From: a virus
Lineage: Duplodnaviria; Heunggongvirae; Uroviricota; Caudoviricetes
Virus record (IMG/VR): IMGVR_UViG_2541047759_000001
Reading direction: 5' to 3' (one strand)
Length of the DNA: 64,000 nucleotides
Shown piece by piece: positions 9,205-61,424 of this stretch. Positions within the stretch are counted from its first letter, which is position 1. Every line of letters begins with the position of its first letter. Under the pieces are notes generated by a model. That model did not search any database and was not told where the DNA came from. It worked only from the letters and a program-made list of their open reading frames with translations. The position numbers were made by a program, and so were the translations under genes.

Positions 9205-9387
9205 ATGCGAAAGTTTAAAATAATTATTGAAACGGGAATAGCCGGTGGAGATTTCGAGGATGAATTCGAAGTGGATGATGATGCGACGCCTGATGAAATA
9301 CATGACGAAGCAAAAGATATTTTCTTTAACTACTGCAATTACTCATATCACGAAATAAAAGACAAAGAGGAAGAACAAAATGGCTGA
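9205..9387 (+). CDS. Small acidic hypothetical protein (nin-region)
   Basis: 60-aa ORF, strongly acidic. Confidence 0.3.
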   Translation: MRKFKIIIETGIAGGDFEDEFEVDDDATPDEIHDEAKDIFFNYCNYSYHEIKDKEEEQNG

Positions 9388-53163: not shown

Positions 53164-54450
53164 ATGAATACTGGATATTCTCCCGAACAAGGGCGGGGCT
53201 TCGTTCGTCCTGAAAAACAGAATCTGCAAAATTTTGCCGAAATTATTCCGGTTATTTCCGGCCTTACTGGCGGGAGTGAAACCAATATTGTTAACGCCAG
53301 AGCGTTGCAGATGTTTGATGATAAAAAGGGAGTAAATTTAACTTACACCCCTGACGGCAATCAGAATATGAGCATTATCTCTGAGTCAGGTTTCTACAAA
53401 CTAATAAAAACAAAAAGCGCCCCGTTGCCGGAGCGCCTTTGTGAACAATTAACCTACTGCGCAAAAAATGAATCTGAGCAGTGGGATTATATCAACCATG
53501 TGGAGAAGCGCCACAATTGCCGAATAACGGGCAAAACAAAGGCCACCCGCTACGGTGGCCCCTCGACACAAGCTACACGTTATCCCCAACGCATGAGCAT
53601 TGCCAACAATGCCACATTTGCGGCTGGTGGGCAATGCAATCAGTCAGGTTCAGTTCGTTGCCATACCTGCAATGAGCGCTTTTCCCTGTACTCTTTAAGG
53701 AATTGCTCAAGGGCAAAAGCACATGGCGCGAATCTTTCTGATTCATGCTCTATCTTTCTGCGCCGTCTTTTCCGTGCCGGTGATAATGTTTTGGTCAATT
53801 CTTTATCGGTCATTGTGTTGTCCTGCATAGCAATGCGCCGTAGTTACTCACACCACGGCGCTGGTGATGGTTACTCCTGCTCTTTGGCCTTGCGGCGCTG
53901 GCGGCGTTTGATCTCGCCTTGCATTGACGCAATGATGAATTGTGATGTGCTTTCGCCTGATTCTTTCACTGATTCCATGGCGTTTACTATTTCGTGTGGT
54001 ACACGAGCCTTTAGAGCTTGTGATTTTGCGTTTGTTGTACCCGTTGCCATTTCTATTCCTCTGTTGGATTGGTGGGGGACAGTATACACAGAAAAAGCAC
54101 AAATAAAACCCTTGACGTGGGCCACACCTAAAGCATATAGTGGGCCACACCTTGAGATTATCAAGGTGCATAAATGCAAAGCCCCGCAAGTGTCGTTACC
54201 ACTCGCAGGGCTTCTAACCACCAACGATAGCGAAAGTATCGAGGTAGCTATGTTAAATCATACCACACACCCGCAAGGGCGGGACTCGCACAACCTGAAT
54301 AAATACATCTGGCGTTTTATCGCCCTGAGCACGGCACAACCGCGCGTGATTACCATTGAGGCCACCAGCGAACAGGAAGCACGCCAGCAATCTCCGGCTG
54401 GCTGCGTGATGGTATTTGCTGCCCGTATTCGTCAGGGGGTAGGCTTATGA
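53164..54450 (+). CDS. Long ORF of doubtful reality (428 codons); only the last 66 codons (54250..54450) look like a coupled small gene
   Basis: Open frame without stop, but the middle is Cys/Arg/Ser-rich, spans a promoter/operator region and is antisense to a well-formed RHH gene. Confidence 0.2.
   Translation: MNTGYSPEQGRGFVRPEKQNLQNFAEIIPVISGLTGGSETNIVNARALQMFDDKKGVNLTYTPDGNQNMSIISESGFYKLIKTKSAPLPERLCEQLTYCAKNESEQWDYINHVEKRHNCRITGKTKATRYGGPSTQATRYPQRMSIANNATFAAGGQCNQSGSVRCHTCNERFSLYSLRNCSRAKAHGANLSDSCSIFLRRLFRAGDNVLVNSLSVIVLSCIAMRRSYSHHGAGDGYSCSLALRRWRRLISPCIDAMMNCDVLSPDSFTDSMAFTISCGTRAFRACDFAFVVPVAISIPLLDWWGTVYTEKAQIKPLTWATPKAYSGPHLEIIKVHKCKAPQVSLPLAGLLTTNDSESIEVAMLNHTTHPQGRDSHNLNKYIWRFIALSTAQPRVITIEATSEQEARQQSPAGCVMVFAARIRQGVGL
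53871..54050 (-). CDS. Ribbon-helix-helix (Arc/CopG-like) DNA-binding protein, candidate island repressor
   Basis: MATGTTNAKSQALKARVPHEIVNAMESVKESGESTSQFIIASMQGEIKRRQRRKAKEQE; AGAGGA RBS; divergent from a promoter with operator repeats. Confidence 0.5.
   Translation of the reverse strand: MATGTTNAKSQALKARVPHEIVNAMESVKESGESTSQFIIASMQGEIKRRQRRKAKEQE
54112..54151 (+). promoter_or_regulatory. Rightward promoter (TTGACG ... TATAGT) overlapped by two GTGGGCCACACC operator repeats
   Basis: -35 at 54112-54117, -10 at 54136-54141; GTGGGCCACACC at 54117-54128 and 54140-54151. Confidence 0.45.
54250..54450 (+). CDS. Small hypothetical protein, first gene of the rightward island operon
   Basis: ATG 54250 with GAGG RBS; 66 aa; stop overlaps next start (ATGA). 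Confidence 0.45.
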   Translation: MLNHTTHPQGRDSHNLNKYIWRFIALSTAQPRVITIEATSEQEARQQSPAGCVMVFAARIRQGVGL

Positions 54451-54677
54451 GCCAGGAAATCACACTACAACAGGCAGCAGAACGCGCCCACCAAATCGAA
54501 GTTATTTGCGCACTGGCAGAGGATTACCCTGGCATGATGACCGACAGCGAATCAGGGGCAATCATCGGCTTACTTAAACGCCTTAGCGGTGAGGTCTGCG
54601 TATTCCTGAGCGATGAACAGGAAAGAAGAACGCTTATTTCTAACGAAAAAAAATGCGGAGGGGTACATGTGCAATAA
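54447..54677 (+). CDS. Hypothetical protein
   Basis: 76 aa, translationally coupled. Confidence 0.45.
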   Translation: MSQEITLQQAAERAHQIEVICALAEDYPGMMTDSESGAIIGLLKRLSGEVCVFLSDEQERRTLISNEKKCGGVHVQ

Positions 54678-55101
54678 AACCACACCGGACGCAGCCGCCG
54701 CCGCACTCACTACGCTGATGCACGCGCTTATTGATATTGAATGCACGGCAGAGCTTGCGCAGGGAGAAGAACAGAAAGACCGGACACAGTTCGCCCTGGA
54801 ATGTATCCGATACATCGCAACGCGGTCGCTGAATGACGCTAAAAATATTCTTGTTGCTGATTGTGAAAATGGGGGGGTTATGCGTGATGATCGTTTTAAT
54901 TCCCTGAAACAGGAATTTTCCGGCGTTCCTGATGATGCGGCTGATGCGCTTTCGTCAATGCCAGAGCTTATTAGAGCGGATTTTTTCTTACTTTCCACGA
55001 GAGAATATAAATCAACGGGGCTTGATGTACTGAATATCGCCGCCGATTATGCTGATTTCGTGACAGAGGTTATTTTAAGAAAAACGACGGACGGGGATTA
55101 A
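54667..55101 (+). CDS. Hypothetical protein
   Basis: ATG 54667 with GGAGGGG RBS; 144 aa. Confidence 0.45.
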   Translation: MCNKTTPDAAAAALTTLMHALIDIECTAELAQGEEQKDRTQFALECIRYIATRSLNDAKNILVADCENGGVMRDDRFNSLKQEFSGVPDDAADALSSMPELIRADFFLLSTREYKSTGLDVLNIAADYADFVTEVILRKTTDGD

Positions 55102-55341: not shown

Positions 55342-55641
55342 ATGAAACTTAAATATTCTGGCTTAACTGCCAGTGGCAAAACTCGCACTAAATTCATGCG
55401 CGGTGATATTTACCGCGATAAGTACGGCGGCACGGTAATGATTAAGGGCGTGGAGGAACGGCGCGTAACCTACCGTCGTGAAGGCTACGAATATGATTGC
55501 GTGATGCCTGTTTATCAGTTCGACCGTGATTTTTCTCTTGTGCAGGCCGTACCGCGTAACGTGCCCACCAGCAGGGAGAAAGCACGCGCCAATATTCAGA
55601 AGATGAAAACCATGATTAAAGGATTCAGGGGTAAAAAATGA
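55342..55641 (+). CDS. Hypothetical protein
   Basis: 99 aa, overlaps primase start. Confidence 0.4.
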   Translation: MKLKYSGLTASGKTRTKFMRGDIYRDKYGGTVMIKGVEERRVTYRREGYEYDCVMPVYQFDRDFSLVQAVPRNVPTSREKARANIQKMKTMIKGFRGKK

Positions 55642-57392
55642 AACTGGCACCGAACGTAAAACAGCAGTCACGCGGCATAAAACACAAAGGAACAGAAGTC
55701 ATTATTTTTGCGGGTAGTGATGCCTGGGCACACGCGAAACAATGGCAGGAACATGATGCGCGTATGGCCGGAGATAATGAGCCTCCTGTGTGGCTTGGGG
55801 AGCAGCAGTTATCAGAACTGGATAAGCTGCAAATTGTGCCGGAAGGCAGAAAATCCGTGCGCATATTCAGGGCCGGATATCTTGCGCCAGTAATGATAAA
55901 GGCGATTGGCCAGAAGCTGGCGGCGGCAGGCGTACAGGATGCAAATTTTTACCCTGATGGTATGCACGGTCAGAAGGTGGAGAACTGGCGCGAATATCTG
56001 GCCCGTGAGCGCCAGAATCTTTCTGATGGTCTGGTCATTGAGCTTCCGGTAAAGCAAAAGGCGCAACTTTCGCAGATGGCGGACAGTGAGCGCGCGCAGC
56101 TGCTTGCCGATCGCTTTGATGGCGTTTGCGTACATCCTGAAAGTGAAATCGTTCACGTATGGCGCGGCGGGGTATGGTGTCCGGTCAGCACAATGGAACT
56201 TAGCCGCGAAATGGTGGCGATCTATTCAGAGCACAGGGCCACTTTCAGCAAGCGCGTAATCAATAACGCCGTGGAAGCGTTAAAAGTTATTGCCGAACCA
56301 ATGGGCGAGCCGTCCGGCGATTTGCTGCCGTTCGCCAATGGTGCGCTTGACCTGAAAACGGGGGGATTTTCCCCGCACACGCCGGAGAACTGGATCACCA
56401 CGCACAACGGCATTGAGTACACGCCACCAGCACCAGGGGAGAACATCCGCGATAACGCGCCAAACTTTCATAAATGGCTTGAGCACGCAGCCGGAAAAGA
56501 CCCGCGCAAGATGATGCGTATATGTGCCGCGCTGTACATGATTATGGCGAACCGGTACGACTGGCAGATGTTTATTGAGGCCACCGGAGACGGCGGGAGC
56601 GGTAAAAGTACATTCACGCACATAGCCAGCCTTCTGGCAGGGAAACAGAACACGGTAAGCGCTGAAATGACATCGCTTGATGATGCTGGTGGACGTGCGC
56701 AGGTTGTCGGGAGTCGTCTTATCGTCCTGGCTGACCAGCCGAAATATACAGGCGAAGGAACGGGCATCAAGAAAATCACGGGCGGTGACCCCGTGGAAAT
56801 TAACCCGAAATACGAAAAGCGTTTCACGGCTGTAATCAGGGCGGTGGTGCTGGCGACCAACAATAACCCGATGATATTCACCGAACGGGCCGGAGGTGTG
56901 GCACGTCGTCGCGTGATTTTCCGTTTCGACAATATCGTCAGTGAGGCCGAAAAAGACAGGGAGCTACCGGAAAAGATCGCGGCTGAAATCCCTGTCATTA
57001 TCCGCCGATTGCTGGCGAACTTTACCGACCCTGAGAAGGCACGGGCTTTACTACTGGAACAGCGTGACGGTGATGAAGCACTGGCAATAAAGCAACAGAC
57101 GGATCCGGTTATTGAGTTTTGCCAGTTCCTGAATTTTCTGGAGGAAGCGCGCGGCCTGATGATGGGGGGCGGTGGCGATTCAGTGAAGTACACGACCAGG
57201 AACAGCCTTTACCGCGTCTATCTGGCGTTTATGGCATACGCAGGCAGGAGCAAACCGCTAAACGTAAATGACTTTGGAAAGGCTATGAAGCCTGCCGCAA
57301 AAGTTTACGGACATGAATATATTACGCGGAAAGTTAAGGGGGTAACGCAGACTAACGCAATAACAACAGACGAGTGCGACGCGTTTTTATAA
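55638..57392 (+). CDS. Primase/replication protein, P4-type D5-like NTPase (pri-rep)
   Basis: 584 aa; Walker A GDGGSGKST; D5-N-like region upstream; followed directly by iterons. Confidence 0.8.
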   Translation: MKLAPNVKQQSRGIKHKGTEVIIFAGSDAWAHAKQWQEHDARMAGDNEPPVWLGEQQLSELDKLQIVPEGRKSVRIFRAGYLAPVMIKAIGQKLAAAGVQDANFYPDGMHGQKVENWREYLARERQNLSDGLVIELPVKQKAQLSQMADSERAQLLADRFDGVCVHPESEIVHVWRGGVWCPVSTMELSREMVAIYSEHRATFSKRVINNAVEALKVIAEPMGEPSGDLLPFANGALDLKTGGFSPHTPENWITTHNGIEYTPPAPGENIRDNAPNFHKWLEHAAGKDPRKMMRICAALYMIMANRYDWQMFIEATGDGGSGKSTFTHIASLLAGKQNTVSAEMTSLDDAGGRAQVVGSRLIVLADQPKYTGEGTGIKKITGGDPVEINPKYEKRFTAVIRAVVLATNNNPMIFTERAGGVARRRVIFRFDNIVSEAEKDRELPEKIAAEIPVIIRRLLANFTDPEKARALLLEQRDGDEALAIKQQTDPVIEFCQFLNFLEEARGLMMGGGGDSVKYTTRNSLYRVYLAFMAYAGRSKPLNVNDFGKAMKPAAKVYGHEYITRKVKGVTQTNAITTDECDAFL

Positions 57393-57404
57393 TTTTTTGT
57401 AATT

Positions 57405-57640
57405 GCTGTCTACCCTGTCTACCTGAGTAAAGAAAAATACATTTAATTCAGTGCATTAAGTTAGGTAGATAGCCTTTTTTTACTGTCTACCCACTATCTA
57501 CCCTCTCTACCTGATTTTACCTGAATCAGACAGGGAGGTAGACACGGGGTAGATAGTGGATAAAAGCACTCTACCCCGCTGAAAGCCGCGCCATTACTGG
57601 CATGAGGGCCACTAAGGTAGATAAGGTAGACAAGGGGAGG
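57405..57640. repeat. Island replication origin: GGTAGA/TCTACC iterons
   Basis: At least ten copies of TCTACC or its complement in both orientations, immediately after the primase stop. Confidence 0.6.
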
Positions 57641-57680
57641 CACAACTCAAAACTTTTTAAACGAGGGGGTAAAAATAAAT

Positions 57681-57959
57681 ATGCACACTTCAGGGAAATT
57701 TAATAAATCACTCAAAAAACGCAGAGACAGAACAGAACCGAAATATCGCGCGTTAGACATGACAGAGCACGCTTTAAAGGTGGCAATCAGAACGATAGAC
57801 CGCCACGCGGGGGAAGGATACGCGAAAGCACATCCCGAACTGATAAGCGCATTCATGACCACGACGGCGGCAAATTTTGCCACGCTGACAGAGCGGGAGA
57901 TTGCCGAAGCGGAACAGGTAACAACCATCAACGTTAAAACCGGAGAGGTGGAATCATGA
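57681..57959 (+). CDS. Hypothetical protein
   Basis: ATG 57681 with GAGGGGG RBS; 92 aa. Confidence 0.45.
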   Translation: MHTSGKFNKSLKKRRDRTEPKYRALDMTEHALKVAIRTIDRHAGEGYAKAHPELISAFMTTTAANFATLTEREIAEAEQVTTINVKTGEVES

Positions 57960-58378
57960 CAGCACAGATAGCAGCTTACGGGCGGCTGGTGGACGACCCG
58001 CAGGTAAAACAGACCAGCAAGGGCACACCGATGACGCTGGCGCGTATGGCGGTCCCCCTTCCGTGCAGCCAGGCAGATGACGGAACGGCGACGATGTGGT
58101 TATCCGTCCTGGCATTTGGCAGACAGGCCGAAGCACTGGAAAGGCACCGCAAGGGTGAACTCCTGAGCGTGGCGGGTAACATGCAGATCAGCCAGTGGAC
58201 TGGGCAGAACGGAGAAACGCGGCAGGGCTGGCAGGTTATCGCAGACAGTGTAATCAGTGCGCGAACGGCGCGACTGGGCGGCAAAAAAGGTCAACAGGGC
58301 CAGGCTACTGACGCGCTGAACAGGGCAAAACAACAGGCGGGGAATGATGATCCGTACGGGGATAACATACCGTTTTAA
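57956..58378 (+). CDS. ssb: Single-stranded DNA-binding protein-like (OB fold, acidic C-terminal tail)
   Basis: ...AYGRLVDDPQVKQTSKG... OB-like N-region and C-terminal ...DDPYGDNIPF resembling the SSB DDDIPF tail. Confidence 0.65.
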   Translation: MTAQIAAYGRLVDDPQVKQTSKGTPMTLARMAVPLPCSQADDGTATMWLSVLAFGRQAEALERHRKGELLSVAGNMQISQWTGQNGETRQGWQVIADSVISARTARLGGKKGQQGQATDALNRAKQQAGNDDPYGDNIPF

Positions 58379-58393
58379 GCGACGAGAGACAGA

Positions 58394-58418
58394 AGCCGGA
58401 GCAATCCGGCTTTTTTAC
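58394..58418 (+). terminator. Intrinsic terminator after ssb
   Basis: gccggagcaatccggc + tttttt. Confidence 0.6.
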
Positions 58419-58793
58419 GGGGCCTCCTGGCGGGGTGGGCCTGAACACGGGGCGGGAAGCGCGGAAAAAAGCGCATTTTTGTGATTTTATCGTCATCATC
58501 ATCATGAGCGTAATTTATTGTTTTTAATTGTTTTGATGCAAAAAAGATGATGGTTGTGGTTAATTTTTGTTCGACATCTTTGCAGGCAGATAAAAAAGCC
58601 CGATAAGGTCAGAGGTGGCTTATCGGGCTTTTGCATATGAGGCTTTTTGGTGCACTGACACACATGATCGGGATAATCATTTCATAATTTGCAACACAAC
58701 TCAATATCATTGCACAAAATGCAATCCTGATTATAATCAGAGCTGGATGAACATCCAGTTATGATTTTTTAAGTCAAAGAGGAATTTCTTACT

Positions 58794-59000
58794 ATGGCTG
58801 AAGAGAAAAAAGGCGGTATTTCGGTGTACATAAGCCCCGACATCGTGAAGGCGCTCAAGGAACGCCACCAGCAGAACGTAAAAGCAGGCATTGCGGCAGG
58901 ACTTGATCCGCTGGCGATGGTTGAGCCGTCAACAGGCTGGCAGGTACGCGCCTATTTACGCGCGGCGCTGGGTATGAATCAGGTTCACGGGGGTGAATAA
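58794..59000 (+). CDS. Small protein upstream of capsid gene (possible RHH fold)
   Basis: 68 aa; ISVYISPDIVKALKERH resembles an RHH strand-helix start; stop overlaps capsid ATG. Confidence 0.45.
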   Translation: MAEEKKGGISVYISPDIVKALKERHQQNVKAGIAAGLDPLAMVEPSTGWQVRAYLRAALGMNQVHGGE

Positions 59001-60055
59001 TGACAGTAAAAGCAATGGCACTTAACACTAACCAGCTTTTTGCGTACCTGAATCGCGGGGATATTGCGGAATTTAAATTCAGTCCGCTGTTTACCACGCT
59101 GTTTTTCCCGAACGTGGCGACATTCAGCACGCAAAACATCATGCTGGATACCCTGGACATTGAAGAAGTCACCATGTCGGCGTTTTGTTCGCCTATGGTG
59201 GGTAGCCAGGTTCAGCGCGATAAAGGGTACGAAACCAGCACGATTAAACCTGGCTACATGAAGCCAAAGCACGAAATCGATCCAACGAAAACCATCATGC
59301 GCATGGCTGGAGAAGATCCGGCACAGCTTAACGACCCTACCTATCGCCGTATGCGCCTGATTACTGGCAATATGCGCCGCCAGATAAACGCCATAAAAGC
59401 GCGCGTGGAATGGCTGGCGGTAAATGCGGTAACGACCGGAAAAAACATCATTGAAGGCGAAGGCATAGAGCGCTATGAAATCGACTGGAAGATACCGGAA
59501 AAAAACATCATAGAGCAGGCCGACGGGAAAAAATGGTCAGAGCAGGACAAAGAAACCCACGATCCAATCTATGATATCGAACTATACGCCGATCAGGCTG
59601 GTTGCCCCGCAAACGTCATGATTATGGGCGCTGAGGTATGGCGAACGTTACGCAGCTTTAAAAAATTCCGTGAGCTGTACGATCTTTCCCGTGGTTCAGA
59701 GTCCGCCGCAGAGCTGGCCTGTAAAAACCTGGGCGAAGTGGTGAGCTTTAAAGGCTATCTGGGCGATATTGCCCTTATCGTCTATTCCGGCAAATACACT
59801 GACAGCGACGGCACAGAAAAATATTTCCTTGAGCCTGATTTGCTTGTCCTGGGCAACACCAACAATAAAGGGCTGGTGGCCTATGGTGCGATTATGGATC
59901 AGGACGCAGTAAGAACGGGCGCAACGCAAAACATGTTTTACCCGAAAAACTGGATTGAGGACGGCGATCCGGCGATTGAGTACGTGCAGACGCACAGCGC
60001 ACCGCAGCCGGTTCCGGCAGATATTCGCAAATTTGTTACCGTCAAAATTGGTTAA
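59000..60055 (+). CDS. Satellite-encoded major capsid protein, divergent paralog of prophage gpE
   Basis: Collinear with ORF 28232..29260; shared blocks GEDPAQLNDP.YRR.R.IT, NIIEQADGKKWSEQD, VVSFKGY.GD.A. Confidence 0.85.
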   Translation: MTVKAMALNTNQLFAYLNRGDIAEFKFSPLFTTLFFPNVATFSTQNIMLDTLDIEEVTMSAFCSPMVGSQVQRDKGYETSTIKPGYMKPKHEIDPTKTIMRMAGEDPAQLNDPTYRRMRLITGNMRRQINAIKARVEWLAVNAVTTGKNIIEGEGIERYEIDWKIPEKNIIEQADGKKWSEQDKETHDPIYDIELYADQAGCPANVMIMGAEVWRTLRSFKKFRELYDLSRGSESAAELACKNLGEVVSFKGYLGDIALIVYSGKYTDSDGTEKYFLEPDLLVLGNTNNKGLVAYGAIMDQDAVRTGATQNMFYPKNWIEDGDPAIEYVQTHSAPQPVPADIRKFVTVKIG

Positions 60056-60066
60056 CGGGGGATTCT

Positions 60067-60402
60067 ATGGACACTCCATACATTGAGTTATTTGCAGGCA
60101 GTCAGCAGGTCGCCACGACGCTGGTACATTTTGCCGCTGATGCTGGCGTTATTCAGGAATTTACCCCGCTGATGCTGGCGGACAATGGCGAGTTTAAGCC
60201 GTGGGATGGTAAGGAATCTGGCAAGGCTGTTTATCTGACCTCGTACCCTGTGGACACGTCAAAGCAGAAATCAGCACAGTGTTACAAGACGGGGATATTC
60301 AATATTGCCGCCGTTAACTGGCCTGAGAGCGTCGACACCGATGCGAAAAAATGCGCCGCCTTTGCGGGTTCCGGCGTATCCGTTCAGCCGCTGGCCCGAT
60401 AA
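60067..60402 (+). CDS. Satellite-encoded head decoration protein, divergent paralog of prophage gpD
   Basis: Shares TPLML, WDG and WPESVD..KK..AF.GS blocks with ORF 27827..28174. Confidence 0.7.
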   Translation: MDTPYIELFAGSQQVATTLVHFAADAGVIQEFTPLMLADNGEFKPWDGKESGKAVYLTSYPVDTSKQKSAQCYKTGIFNIAAVNWPESVDTDAKKCAAFAGSGVSVQPLAR

Positions 60403-60414
60403 GCAGGGGGAACG

Positions 60415-60828
60415 ATGGCAACGAATGAAAGCATCATGACGCTACCGCTGGCGAGTAAATTTAAAGCCGAAGCGCGGGCAATGGCTGACAGAGGTTTATC
60501 AACCTATGAGGCCGTATATCAACTAAACAAACTGGAAGAGCAGGACAAGCCGCGCGCTGATGCGATTATGGCGCTTCATGAGCATAAAGACTATCAGCCG
60601 CTGTTACGTGCAATGGCAAACGTGCCATGTATTAGCGTCGATAATGCTCGTGAAATCCTGAACATGACCATAGAGCAGGAGCGCCCAAAGGTTGCACCAG
60701 AGCTTACCGCAGCCTTTGAAAACTTTATGGACATGCACAGCCCGCAAGCCGTATCAGCTGGCATGGCATACGATGGCAGAAACCAGGGCGATGACGGCGA
60801 CATCGATCGCATACTGAAAACCATCTGA
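60415..60828 (+). CDS. Satellite-encoded scaffold-like protein (Nu3-like, resembles C-terminal part of prophage gpC)
   Basis: C-terminus ...AAFENFMDMHSPQAV... parallels ...ALFEHFMANHSPAAV... at the end of ORF 26285..27790. Confidence 0.65.
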   Translation: MATNESIMTLPLASKFKAEARAMADRGLSTYEAVYQLNKLEEQDKPRADAIMALHEHKDYQPLLRAMANVPCISVDNAREILNMTIEQERPKVAPELTAAFENFMDMHSPQAVSAGMAYDGRNQGDDGDIDRILKTI

Positions 60829-60833
60829 GACAA

Positions 60834-60858
60834 GGCCGGAGAAATCCGGCTTTTTTAC
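60834..60858 (+). terminator. Intrinsic terminator after capsid module (near-copy of the 58394 terminator)
   Basis: ggccggagaaatccggc + tttttt. Confidence 0.6.
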
Positions 60859-60861
60859 GGG

Positions 60862-60925
60862 TCCTTCCTGGAATTATGGCCCGTTACGGGGCGGCGACCT
60901 CGCGGGTTTTCGCTATTTATGACGT
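60862..60925 (+). other. Island cos site copy 1: lambda-type cosN, cohesive end GGGCGGCGACCT at 60889-60900, direct orientation
   Basis: ccgttacGGGGCGGCGACCTcgcgggttttcgctatttatga, near-identical to prophage 21905-21945; downstream sequence diverges. Confidence 0.75.
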
Positions 60926-60989: not shown

Positions 60990-61424
60990 ATGATTGATAA
61001 AGCTTGTTTTGTAAGTCAGCAGGAAATAGCTGAACATTTCAAGGTTAACAGAACCACTATTCGCGCATGGACCAAACAGGGGATGCCGTATCTTAATGCG
61101 GATCGCGGAAAGTCTGGCGGTTATCACATCGGGCATACATTGCTTTGGTCTTCAGGTAAAAGCCGTCTTGAGGCCATCAGATATCACGTAGAAACCAGTG
61201 CGCTGGAAAAAATTATGTTTGCCAGGCTGCTTTCATCTGAGCGTGACGAGTACTCCAGTGAAGAAACAGAACATCGATTTGATGAAGGTTTGCAGATTTA
61301 CGGCTATTCACCGGAAGATGTGAGCAAGGCACGAAATAAAATGGCTGGCTTTCTGGCTGGGTGGCGTCATGCCGTAAGCGTTCGCCGTGCCAGCATGGAG
61401 CAATCAGCCGATACAGAACAGTAA
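60990..61424 (+). CDS. Terminase small-subunit-like protein with Nu1-type N-terminal HTH and unrelated C-terminus
   Basis: ...QQEIAEHFKVNRTTIRAWTKQGMPYLNADRGKSGG... parallels the recalled lambda Nu1 N-terminus (..LADIFGASIRTIQNWQEQGMPVLRGGGKG..); C-terminus lacks the gpA-interacting motif seen in the prophage Nu1. Confidence 0.6.
   Translation: MIDKACFVSQQEIAEHFKVNRTTIRAWTKQGMPYLNADRGKSGGYHIGHTLLWSSGKSRLEAIRYHVETSALEKIMFARLLSSERDEYSSEETEHRFDEGLQIYGYSPEDVSKARNKMAGFLAGWRHAVSVRRASMEQSADTEQ

What the first reader, a model, noticed from the sequence alone, without database searches (positions are those of the whole stretch)
55638..58378. Autonomous replication module: P4-type primase, iteron origin, SSB-like gene
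The primase stop at 57392 is followed within 15 bp by ~240 bp containing at least ten TCTACC/GGTAGA iterons in both orientations, then two genes including an SSB-like protein with a DDPYGDNIPF tail. The satellite appears to replicate independently of helper replication proteins.
Basis: partly seen in the sequence, partly recalled or inferred. Interest (0 to 1): 0.45.

Follow-up and report, generated by a model that had tools for sequence, protein, structure and literature searches.

The report
Known PICI satellite replication module
This is the self-replication unit (initiator-helicase gene, repeat-studded origin and an accessory SSB gene) of an E. coli phage satellite almost identical to the well-studied island EcCICFT073, whose replicon has already been shown by experiment to work, so the finding is correct but ordinary.

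Summary
ORF 55638-57392 ends 16 nt before an array of 11 exact TCTACC/GGTAGA hexamers (57409-57630). Only 10 other copies occur in the other ~63.7 kb of the window (Poisson P ~4e-23). A 92-aa ORF follows, then a genuine SSB ending in DDPYGDNIPF.

The element is an 11.15-kb phage-inducible chromosomal island between roxA and phoQ, at the same site and in the same gene order as EcCICFT073. The initiator is 99% identical (578/584) and the origin 97% identical to that island. Fillol-Salom et al. 2018 showed that pri-rep plus ori from EcCICFT073 drives plasmid replication without a helper phage.

Two refinements:
- Only residues 141-584 (SF3 helicase plus winged-helix origin binder) resemble P4 alpha, at 40% identity. 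The P4 zinc-ribbon/Toprim primase part is replaced by an unrelated ~135-aa domain that lacks the Toprim acidic residues, so "primase" is unproven.
- The left half of the origin copies the layout of P4 ori.

Across 80 related loci the iteron type follows the winged-helix domain. SSB is present in only 12 of 82 origins, so it is accessory. A conserved 21-bp dyad inside the origin is unexplained.

Novelty: already known. Interest: low.

The parts
55342..55641 (+). DUF4222 gene, translationally coupled to the initiator gene (ATGA overlap). It is a conserved upstream neighbour; its function is unknown and its membership of the replicon is not shown.
   Evidence: Pfam DUF4222 E 2.5e-24. The same gene sits directly upstream of pri in CFT073 and in loci L003-L005.
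55638..57392 (+). pri-rep: initiator-helicase of the island (584 aa).
   Evidence: ORF. 578/584 identical to the EcCICFT073 protein. Pfam D5_N, DUF5906 and Pox_D5. Residues 141-584 are 40% identical to P4 alpha 324-762.
55638..56042 (+). N-terminal ~135-aa alpha/beta domain sitting where P4 alpha has its primase. It is not a recognisable zinc-ribbon/Toprim primase.
56094..56483 (+). D5_N domain (collar tier N-terminal to the SF3 ATPase).
   Evidence: Pfam PF08706 E 1.5e-14, residues 153-282. Together with the ATPase it aligns to SaPI5 PriRep5 7OLA residues 404-639.
56583..57047 (+). SF3 helicase ATPase core. Walker A GDGGSGKST at 56586-56612, Walker B-like LIVLAD, motif C ATNNNP, and an RRR arginine cluster.
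   Evidence: Pfam DUF5906 E 5e-10. PDB 7OLA E 1.3e-14. Motif positions. These residues are conserved in the alignment with P4 alpha and invariant in A5.
57096..57374 (+). C-terminal winged-helix origin-binding domain, the presumed iteron reader.
   Evidence: Pfam Pox_D5. Matches the P4 alpha origin-binding domain 1KA8 at E 7e-7, residues 488-579. Its divergence tracks iteron type across 80 loci.
57407..57632 (.). Origin of replication: 11 iterons with core TCTACC (extended TRTCTACC) arranged as an imperfect 226-bp palindrome.
   Evidence: 97% identical to the EcCICFT073 ori region. Same layout as P4 ori.
57424..57463 (.). AT-rich spacer, the probable DNA-unwinding element.
   Evidence: GC 0.20-0.23. 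It occupies the same position as the AT-rich spacer of P4 ori. It fits the description of PICI origins as two iteron sets flanking an AT-rich region in PMC6092414.
57583..57603 (.). Conserved 21-bp dyad AAGCC-N11-GGCAT (family consensus AAGCC-N11-GGCTT) in the right-hand 46-bp spacer. Function unknown.
   Evidence: It is invariant across alleles that carry different iterons. The strict pattern occurs in 32 of 82 related origins against 0.36 expected from shuffles. It is absent from P4 ori and crr.
57681..57959 (+). 92-aa ORF of unknown function between ori and ssb.
   Evidence: phrog_1231 E 2.9e-51, unknown function. No Pfam or NCBIfam hit. tblastn found a homologue at the same position in CFT073, L004, L005 and L008 (gene tables for the first three). 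L006 has a 100-aa hypothetical ORF in that slot that tblastn did not match. No ORF is annotated there in L003.
57956..58378 (+). Compact SSB (140 aa): an OB fold plus a short linker and a host-like acidic tip DDPYGDNIPF.
   Evidence: PF00436 E 4.9e-15 and TIGR00621 at 59.4 bits against a 53.95 cut-off. 26 solved SSBs match. 29% identical to E. coli SSB, with W54, F60 and W88 equivalents kept. 72% identical to the EcCICFT073 SSB.
58393..58418 (+). Intrinsic-terminator-like hairpin (AAGCCGGAGCAATCCGGCTT followed by TTTTAC) closing the pri-ori-orf92-ssb unit.
   Evidence: 8-bp stem, -9.4 kcal/mol, z = -3.35, and 0 of 200 shuffles fold as well. The same sequence recurs at 60835. The consensus terminator scan did not list it.

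Best explanation
The region is the replicon of an EcCICFT073-type Gram-negative phage-inducible chromosomal island (PICI). The island spans 11.15 kb between att repeats at 51232-51306 and 62384-62458.

Shown, or carried over from a near-identical allele:
- The pri-rep gene together with the iteron region directly 3' of it forms a helper-independent replicon.

Inferred mechanism:
1. The 584-aa protein forms an SF3 hexameric helicase that also acts as initiator.
2. Its C-terminal winged-helix domain reads the TRTCTACC iterons. These are laid out exactly as the type-1 repeats of P4 ori.
3. The 40-bp AT-rich spacer between the first iteron pair and the inverted iteron melts, and the helicase loads itself.
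4. The protein lacks the zinc-ribbon/Toprim primase of P4 alpha, so primers most likely come from host DnaG and synthesis from host Pol III.
5. The island SSB has an IPF tip matching that of host SSB. It probably coats the unwound strands and couples them to host SSB-binding replisome proteins. It is an accessory, not a required part.
6. No terminator or promoter consensus lies between pri and orf92. Therefore pri, orf92 and ssb are probably one transcript that reads through the origin and stops at the hairpin at 58393.
For: Identity with the characterised element:
- Same insertion site (roxA/phoQ) and same gene order as CFT073.
- Pri-Rep 578/584 identical and ori 97% identical with all 11 hexamers kept.
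- Published function of that allele (PMC6092414): pri-ori keeps a ts plasmid alive at 44 C in DH5alpha, whereas the delta-rep and delta-ori constructs do not. AlpA overexpression in a non-lysogen gives runaway replication that needs pri. Deleting pri-rep drops transfer about 100-fold.

Anatomy:
- Iteron clustering has P ~4e-23, with an AT-rich spacer.
- The left-half spacings read in reverse are 9, 11, 22, 46, 9. P4 ori type-1 repeats are spaced 10, 11, 22, 43, 10, with the same orientations and an AT-rich spacer in the same slot. The iterons are TGTCTACC here and TGTTCACC in P4.
- Helicase and winged-helix homology to P4 alpha, to 1KA8 and to SaPI5 PriRep5 7OLA. For PriRep5 the C-terminal domain is required for ori binding, and SaPI Rep winged-helix domains are reported to recognise the iterons (PMC9371898).

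Comparative evidence:
- Most of 82 related origins carry 7-13 copies of some hexamer within 330 bp of the stop, often with the same ++-+++--+-- pattern.
- Iteron type follows the winged-helix domain and not the helicase core. TCTACC loci are 45-54% identical in the winged helix, while TGTTCA/GAACAC loci are 29-35% identical, at overlapping core identities (45-67% against 49-63%).

SSB: OB fold and IPF tip. The pri-ori-ssb order holds across alleles with different iterons.
Against: - No experiment was done on this exact allele. It has 6 amino-acid differences from the tested protein and about 10 substitutions in the ori region.
- Iteron binding by the winged-helix domain rests on homology and covariation, and relatedness confounds the covariation.
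- No role for the SSB in island replication has been tested in any paper I could read.
- The consensus scans are crude, so read-through transcription is weakly supported.
Confidence: 0.9

Rival explanations
1. The protein is a true primase-helicase. Its N-terminal ~135-aa domain is a divergent or new kind of primase, so the island primes its own DNA as P4 does and does not depend on host DnaG.
Against: - No zinc ribbon is present.
- There is no Pfam hit even at E<=1, and no profile similarity to Toprim N-termini (probability 0.1%).
- The only invariant polar residues are E20 and Q57. The positions after strand 1 and strand 3, where Toprim needs E and DxD, are invariant Ala-Gly.
Confidence: 0.2
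2. The iteron array is not the start site of replication. It would be a crr-like cis enhancer or a copy-control/handcuffing site, with the real origin elsewhere in the island, as in P4 where crr lies 3' of alpha and ori is 4.5 kb away.
For: P4 crr lies immediately 3' of alpha, at the position this array occupies.
Against: - The island has no second cluster. The only other TCTACC inside it is a single copy at 52077.
- The array's left half reproduces the layout of P4 ori, not of crr.
- The published pri-ori fragment alone replicates, and deleting ori reduces maintenance.
Confidence: 0.04
3. The repeats are mainly a transcriptional operator or regulatory region for the downstream orf92-ssb and packaging genes, bound by a regulator and not by the initiator.
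For: The array lies directly upstream of orf92-ssb. A conserved dyad at 57583-57603 that does not depend on iteron type looks like a dimer binding site.
Against: - No sigma-70-like promoter is found on the + strand in the region.
- Iteron type covaries with the initiator's own winged-helix domain.
- The layout is that of a proven origin.
- The ori deletion phenotype is published.
A secondary regulatory role is not excluded.
Confidence: 0.03
4. The SSB gene is not a replication accessory. It would be a counter-defence or recombination/SOS-modulating cargo gene that happens to sit next to the origin.
For: - It was apparently not in the published replicating construct, described as the rep gene plus ori.
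- It is absent from a close O157 relative and from 70 of 82 related origins.
- It diverges much faster than pri: 72% against 99% identity to CFT073.
- Phage SSB-like proteins are known modulators of defence systems (title and abstract of bioRxiv 10.64898/2026.04.29.721553, seen).
Against: - Where present, it always lies just after the origin and in the same orientation, across alleles with different iterons.
- It keeps the host-type IPF tip used to dock replisome proteins.
- Others already class it with the PICI replication genes (PMC10111431).
Confidence: 0.25

Closest known systems
EcCICFT073 pri-rep/ori replicon (Gram-negative PICI; Fillol-Salom et al. 2018, ISME J, PMC6092414)
   Same: - Same chromosomal site (roxA-phoQ).
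- Same gene order: int, alpA, icd-like, DUF4222, pri, ori, small ORF, ssb, capsid, decoration, rppA.
- Initiator 99% identical and ori 97% identical, with the same 11 hexamers.
- RppA and the head-decoration protein carry the same RefSeq protein accessions.
   Different: - 6 amino-acid changes in Pri-Rep.
- SSB only 72% identical.
- The 162-aa ORF at 54613-55101 (annotated as 144 aa in HM670) corresponds to two small ORFs in CFT073.
- The PerC-family gene that follows ssb in CFT073 is absent here.
Satellite phage P4 alpha protein with ori/crr
   Same: - SF3 helicase plus C-terminal winged-helix origin binder: 40% identity over 440 aa, and 1KA8 E 7e-7.
- 8-bp iterons differing at two positions (TGTCTACC here, TGTTCACC in P4).
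- The orientation and spacing pattern of P4 ori, with its AT-rich spacer, is reproduced in the left half of this origin.
- An iteron cluster lies directly 3' of the gene, as crr does in P4.
   Different: - No zinc ribbon or Toprim primase domain; an unrelated ~135-aa domain takes its place.
- One palindromic origin instead of the two-part ori plus crr.
- An extra 21-bp dyad that P4 lacks.
- The published comparison treats PICIs and P4 as separately evolved families (PMC6092414).
SaPI Rep/PriRep self-loading helicases and SaPI ori (PMC9371898)
   Same: - Origin immediately 3' of the initiator gene.
- 6-12 short iterons on both sides of an AT-rich region, in opposite orientations.
- SF3 ATPase with a C-terminal winged-helix domain that reads the iterons.
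- Sequence match to PriRep5 7OLA at E 1.3e-14 over the collar and ATPase.
   Different: - Gram-positive hosts.
- Very low overall identity.
- PriRep5 carries a long (~320-aa) N-terminal primase region, and other SaPIs have a separate pri gene.
- As far as I know, SaPI replicons do not carry an ssb gene.
813-aa PICI Pri-Rep allele (E. coli 1916D6, locus L006; also Kluyvera and Atlantibacter)
   Same: - 54% identical over the helicase and winged helix.
- Same origin layout, same 21-bp dyad, and the same downstream small ORF plus ssb.
   Different: - Complete Zn_Ribbon_Prim plus Toprim_3 N-terminus.
- Iteron core ATCCCTAC instead of TRTCTACC.

Membership tests
Gram-negative PICI (EcCICFT073 type) | Unidirectional int - alpA - pri gene order in a 10-15 kb island without phage tail or lysis genes. 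| tested here: met
   int 51307-52557, alpA 52923-53111 and pri 55638-57392 are all on the + strand. att repeats are 11,152 bp apart. Only capsid, decoration and rppA-type late genes are present.
Gram-negative PICI (EcCICFT073 type) | A dedicated attachment site that is not used by prophages. | tested here: met
   Inserted between roxA and phoQ exactly as EcCICFT073 is in CFT073. No tRNA lies at the junction. Whether prophages ever use this site was not surveyed.
Gram-negative PICI (EcCICFT073 type) | Origin directly 3' of the initiator gene: two iteron sets flanking an AT-rich region. | tested here: met
   97% identical to the CFT073 ori.
Gram-negative PICI (EcCICFT073 type) | pri-rep plus ori supports autonomous replication. 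| not testable with these tools
   Published for the 99%-identical allele (PMC6092414). Not tested for this allele.
Gram-negative PICI (EcCICFT073 type) | Helper-phage-dependent induction (through AlpA) and high-frequency packaging. | not testable with these tools
   A lambdoid cos prophage lies about 5 kb away in the same window, and rppA is identical to that of CFT073. This is context only.
P4 alpha-type primase-helicase | N-terminal zinc-ribbon primase domain (PF08273). | tested here: not met
   No hit in the whole protein or in residues 1-153 at E<=1. The L006 allele scanned in the same call scores 1.3e-15.
P4 alpha-type primase-helicase | Toprim catalytic domain with a conserved Glu and DxD. 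| tested here: not met
P4 alpha-type primase-helicase | D5_N plus SF3 helicase core with Walker A, Walker B and motif C. | tested here: met
P4 alpha-type primase-helicase | C-terminal winged-helix origin-binding domain. | tested here: met
   1KA8 E 7e-7 over residues 488-579. Pox_D5 at 23.4 bits against a 21.4 cut-off.
P4 alpha-type primase-helicase | Two-part cis requirement: ori plus a distant crr. | tested here: not met
   There is only one iteron cluster in the island.
Bacterial SSB (PF00436 / TIGR00621) | OB-fold ssDNA-binding domain scoring above the curated cut-offs. | tested here: met
   PF00436 at 55.9 bits against a 26 cut-off. TIGR00621 at 59.4 against 53.95.
Bacterial SSB (PF00436 / TIGR00621) | Acidic C-terminal tip ending in IPF, used to dock partner proteins. 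| tested here: met
   ...DDPYGDNIPF here against ...DFDDDIPF in E. coli SSB. Both are direct sequence reads; the E. coli sequence came from memory and was used.
Bacterial SSB (PF00436 / TIGR00621) | Homotetramer formation (His55 region of E. coli SSB). | tested here: inconclusive
   The aligned position is Leu. The oligomeric state was not modelled.

The most novel reading that the evidence does not exclude
The widespread 584-aa 'Pri-Rep' of EcCICFT073-type islands is not a primase. Its N-terminal domain would be a non-catalytic adaptor module, one also found on DUF927, AAA_25 and VapE ATPases, that recruits host priming machinery. The iteron-independent 21-bp dyad AAGCC-N11-GGCTT inside the origin (57583-57603) would be the site where that machinery, or another conserved factor, is positioned. 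If so, these satellites replicate independently of the helper phage but depend on host DnaG, unlike P4.
Probability: 0.3. Interest if true: 0.35.

Novelty: already known. Interest (0 to 1): 0.12.

Why it matters
It matters little as a discovery. The replicon of this island family was described and functionally tested in 2018, and the SSB has already been grouped with PICI replication genes.

The re-analysis adds three small points for people who work on satellites or use PICIs as delivery vehicles:
- The common "DNA primase family protein" annotation overstates what the 584-aa allele can be shown to do.
- The origin shares the layout of P4 ori in detail, although the two satellite families have been described as having evolved independently.
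- Iteron specificity can be predicted from the C-terminal winged-helix domain.

The conserved dyad inside the origin is a concrete, cheap target for mutagenesis.

Tried and rejected
- The word-indexed protein search with the full protein returned only 99-100% identical E. coli entries and gave no diversity.
- An Rfam scan of the island found nothing. The single mir-135 match at E 0.28 is an artefact of the origin palindrome.
- Folding the conserved block and the left half of the origin as single strands gave no structure better than shuffles (z 0.33, -1.82 and -0.35). A stable hairpin signal is therefore not supported.
- A near-consensus DnaA box (TTATCCACT, read on the minus strand at 57556-57564) lies between two iterons. 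It is not conserved in alleles L003, L004 or L005, so I treated it as chance.
- The promoter/terminator consensus scan found one minus-strand promoter-like site, against 1.7 expected, and missed the hairpin after ssb.
- Foldseek against the PDB gave no significant match for the N-terminal domain.
- The afdb50 library was unavailable.
- Profile-profile comparison of the N-terminal domain with Toprim-type N-termini was negative.
- The strict dyad pattern hits only terminator hairpins elsewhere in the window, and one unrelated site in P4.
- The hypothesis of a second, distant iteron cluster as in P4 (ori plus crr) was rejected, because no such cluster exists.
Full report
**1. The observation**

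The ORF list gives a 584-aa frame at 55638-57392 on the + strand. The sequence that follows is crowded with TCTACC and its complement GGTAGA.

- An exact search finds 21 copies in the 64-kb window, 11 of them between 57409 and 57630.
- The background rate outside the 288-bp intergenic region predicts 0.045 copies there. The Poisson probability of 11 or more is 4e-23, and no other 288-bp window holds more than two.
- Orientations are ++-+++--+-- with start-to-start spacings 9, 46, 22, 11, 9, 31, 11, 22, 46, 9. The array is a large imperfect palindrome: arms 57407-57428 and 57611-57632 are 86% complementary, and 50-nt inner arms are 70% complementary.
- GC falls to 0.20-0.23 at about 57420-57460, between the first iteron pair and the first inverted copy.
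- Two overlapping genes follow. The first is a 92-aa ORF (57681-57959). The second is a 140-aa protein (57956-58378) ending in DDPYGDNIPF, which scores above the curated thresholds of Pfam SSB and TIGR00621 and matches 26 solved SSBs.

The description is accurate.

**2. What the element is**

The 3.15-kb region is 100% identical to several E. coli chromosomes. Some part of it is found in 1751 of 5426 complete genomes.

- In strain HM670 it lies in an island between roxA and phoQ. The genes in order are integrase, AlpA-type regulator, an Icd-like gene, small ORFs, DUF4222, "DNA primase family protein", a hypothetical gene, SSB, major capsid, head decoration, and more small ORFs.
- A 75-bp imperfect direct repeat with a 31-bp perfect core marks the ends, at 51232-51306 and 62384-62458, 11,152 bp apart. 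No tRNA is involved.
- CFT073 carries the same arrangement at the same site. That island is EcCICFT073, the prototype Gram-negative phage-inducible chromosomal island.
- The initiator proteins are 578/584 identical. The intergenic origin regions are 97% identical, with all 11 hexamers retained. The SSBs are 72% identical.

**3. What is already published**

Fillol-Salom et al. 2018 (PMC6092414) report the following.
- They cloned the EcCICFT073 rep gene and ori into a temperature-sensitive plasmid. It was maintained in DH5alpha at 44 C only when both rep and ori were intact.
- AlpA overexpression in a non-lysogen caused uncontrolled island replication that needed pri.
- Deleting pri-rep cut transfer about a hundred-fold.

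[quoted passage not shown] The finding is therefore correct and already known.

**4. How far "P4-type primase" holds**

Pfam finds D5_N (residues 153-282), the SF3 P-loop family DUF5906 (316-417) and Pox_D5 (487-576), and nothing in the first 150 residues.

Against solved structures:
- Residues 194-432 match SaPI5 PriRep5 (7OLA).
- Residues 488-579 match the origin-binding winged-helix domain of P4 alpha (1KA8, E 7e-7).

BLASTP against P4 alpha aligns residues 141-584 with alpha 324-762 at 40% identity, and nothing before that. Walker A (GDGGSGKST, 317-325), LIVLAD, ATNNNP and the RRR cluster are intact.

A sister PICI allele of 813 aa (locus L006) is 54% identical over the same span. It does carry Zn_Ribbon_Prim and Toprim_3 at its N-terminus. 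The window protein is thus P4-alpha-like in its helicase and origin binder, but its primase part has been replaced.

**5. The replacement domain**

An exhaustive HMMER search of 1.84 billion cluster representatives found only 80 relatives of residues 1-150, nearly all (about 75 of 80) beginning within the first 20 residues of the protein. In those proteins the module is also fused to DUF927, AAA_25 and VapE-type ATPases.

Evidence on its fold:
- An AlphaFold2 model built on 28 sequences is confident (pLDDT 87, pTM 0.82) and shows a beta-alpha-beta-alpha-beta-alpha-beta sandwich.
- Foldseek finds nothing significant.
- Profile-profile comparison with the Toprim-type N-termini of relatives is negative.

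The family's invariant residues are mostly small or hydrophobic. Ala25-Gly26 follow strand 1 and Ala79-Gly80 follow strand 3, where Toprim enzymes carry the catalytic Glu and DxD. The only invariant polar residues are E20 and Q57.

My reading is that primase activity is unlikely and that priming is left to host DnaG. This is an inference from missing motifs, not a result.

**6. The origin compared with P4 and with relatives**

The annotated type-1 repeats of P4 ori are TGTTCACC at 9310(-), 9320(-), 9331(-), 9353(+), an AT-rich 35-bp spacer, then 9396(-) and 9406(-). The spacings are 10, 11, 22, 43, 10. The left half of the window array read in reverse has the same orientations and spacings 9, 11, 22, 46, 9, with its AT-rich spacer in the same slot. 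Its iteron is TGTCTACC. Unlike P4, the island has no second cluster.

I fetched 80 loci encoding relatives of the helicase/winged-helix part from one genome per species.
- Most carry 7-13 copies of some hexamer within 330 bp of the stop codon: TCTACC, CCCTAC, TGTTCA, GTATAC, GGACAG and others. One group, largely Xenorhabdus, shows only weak repeats.
- The ++-+++--+-- pattern recurs with different iteron sequences, for example in Erwinia psidii with TGTTCA.
- Loci with TCTACC iterons are 45-54% identical to the window in the winged-helix domain, at core identities of 45-67%. Loci with TGTTCA/GAACAC/GGTGAA iterons are 29-35% identical in that domain, at core identities of 49-63%. The winged-helix ranges do not overlap, while the core ranges do.
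- Two Raoultella loci have only 45% core identity yet 49% winged-helix identity and TCTACC iterons.

This supports the winged helix as the iteron reader, as is reported for SaPI Reps, whose C-terminal domain is required for ori binding (PMC9371898). Shared ancestry is not controlled for.

**7. An unexplained conserved element**

The right-hand 46-bp spacer is not AT-rich. It contains a block that is invariant even in the allele with different iterons.
- Across the family it resolves to a 21-bp dyad, AAGCC-N11-GGCTT, found in 32 of 82 origins against 0.36 expected from shuffles. It usually lies about 180-215 bp after the stop, and in some loci also in the left spacer.
- The window copy is AAGCCGCGCCATTACTGGCAT at 57583-57603.
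- P4 has no such element in ori or crr.
- It does not fold better than shuffles as a single strand.

I cannot say what binds it.

**8. The SSB and the unit's end**

The SSB keeps the equivalents of E. coli W54, F60 and W88, has a short linker and ends in IPF. By established knowledge of E. coli SSB, that tip docks partner proteins such as the Pol III chi subunit, PriA and DnaG.

- It follows the origin in CFT073, L003, L004 and L006.
- It is missing from an O157 relative and from 70 of 82 family origins.
- It was apparently not in the published replicating construct, described as the rep gene plus ori.

I therefore treat it as accessory.

A strong hairpin followed by a T run at 58393-58418 (z = -3.35) closes the unit. 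The same sequence recurs after the gene ending at 60828. No promoter or terminator consensus lies between pri and orf92, so read-through of the origin is likely but not shown.

**9. Verdict**

The caveats are that "primase" is an annotation and not a demonstrated activity for this allele, and that the SSB is optional. The module is a near-identical copy of a characterised replicon, so novelty is "already known" and interest is low. The residual open points are the nature of the N-terminal domain and the conserved dyad.

Noticed in passing
window 57583-57603: A 21-bp dyad (AAGCC-N11-GGCAT; family consensus AAGCC-N11-GGCTT) sits inside the origin. It is conserved across alleles with unrelated iterons and occurs in 32 of 82 related origins (0.36 expected). 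P4 ori and crr lack it. Its function is unknown.
   Followed up: partly
window 55638-56042 (Pri-Rep residues 1-135): The N-terminal domain has no zinc ribbon and no Toprim signature. It forms a small family (80 cluster representatives) and is also fused to DUF927, AAA_25 and VapE ATPases. A confident model has only weak DnaG-like fold hits. The 'DNA primase' annotation is not backed by motifs.
   Followed up: partly
window ~1-46200: A lambdoid cos-type prophage lies next to potB, about 5 kb from the island. It carries integrase, excisionase, an antiterminator, tRNA genes at ~13.5 kb, lysis genes, small and large terminase, portal, S49 protease, decoration and major capsid genes, and tail genes. 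Several tail genes are annotated as frameshifted. It is a candidate helper for the island.
   Followed up: no
window 60990-61424: This 144-aa ORF carries the same RefSeq protein accession (WP_000565609.1) as the CFT073 gene at the equivalent position. By length and position it looks like RppA, the published protein that retargets helper TerS to the island cos site. The identification as RppA rests on those two features only.
   Followed up: partly
window 58379-58793, compared with L002 4960-5208: CFT073 has a PerC-family regulator gene right after ssb. The window has no such gene, and the space holds only the terminator-like hairpin and AT-rich sequence.
   Followed up: no
window 58395-58425 and 60835-60865: The same 31-nt terminator-like sequence (GCCGGAGnAATCCGGCTTTTTTACGGG) occurs twice in the island at 94% identity. 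One copy follows ssb and the other follows the 137-aa ORF that ends at 60828.
   Followed up: no
window 59000-60402: The island carries its own lambda-E-like major capsid (351 aa, phrog_29) and head decoration (111 aa, phrog_49) genes. These correspond to EcCICFT073 c1499 and c1500, which the 2018 paper found dispensable for transfer.
   Followed up: no
window 53164-54450: The mechanical ORF list shows a 428-aa + strand frame here. In the RefSeq record the region is annotated instead as small minus-strand genes (YlcI/YnfO family and a hypothetical) plus an Icd-like gene. The long frame is probably spurious.
   Followed up: no
window 57556-57564 (minus strand): A near-consensus DnaA box (TTATCCACT) lies between two iterons. 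It is kept in CFT073 but not in alleles L003-L005, so it is probably chance.
   Followed up: partly
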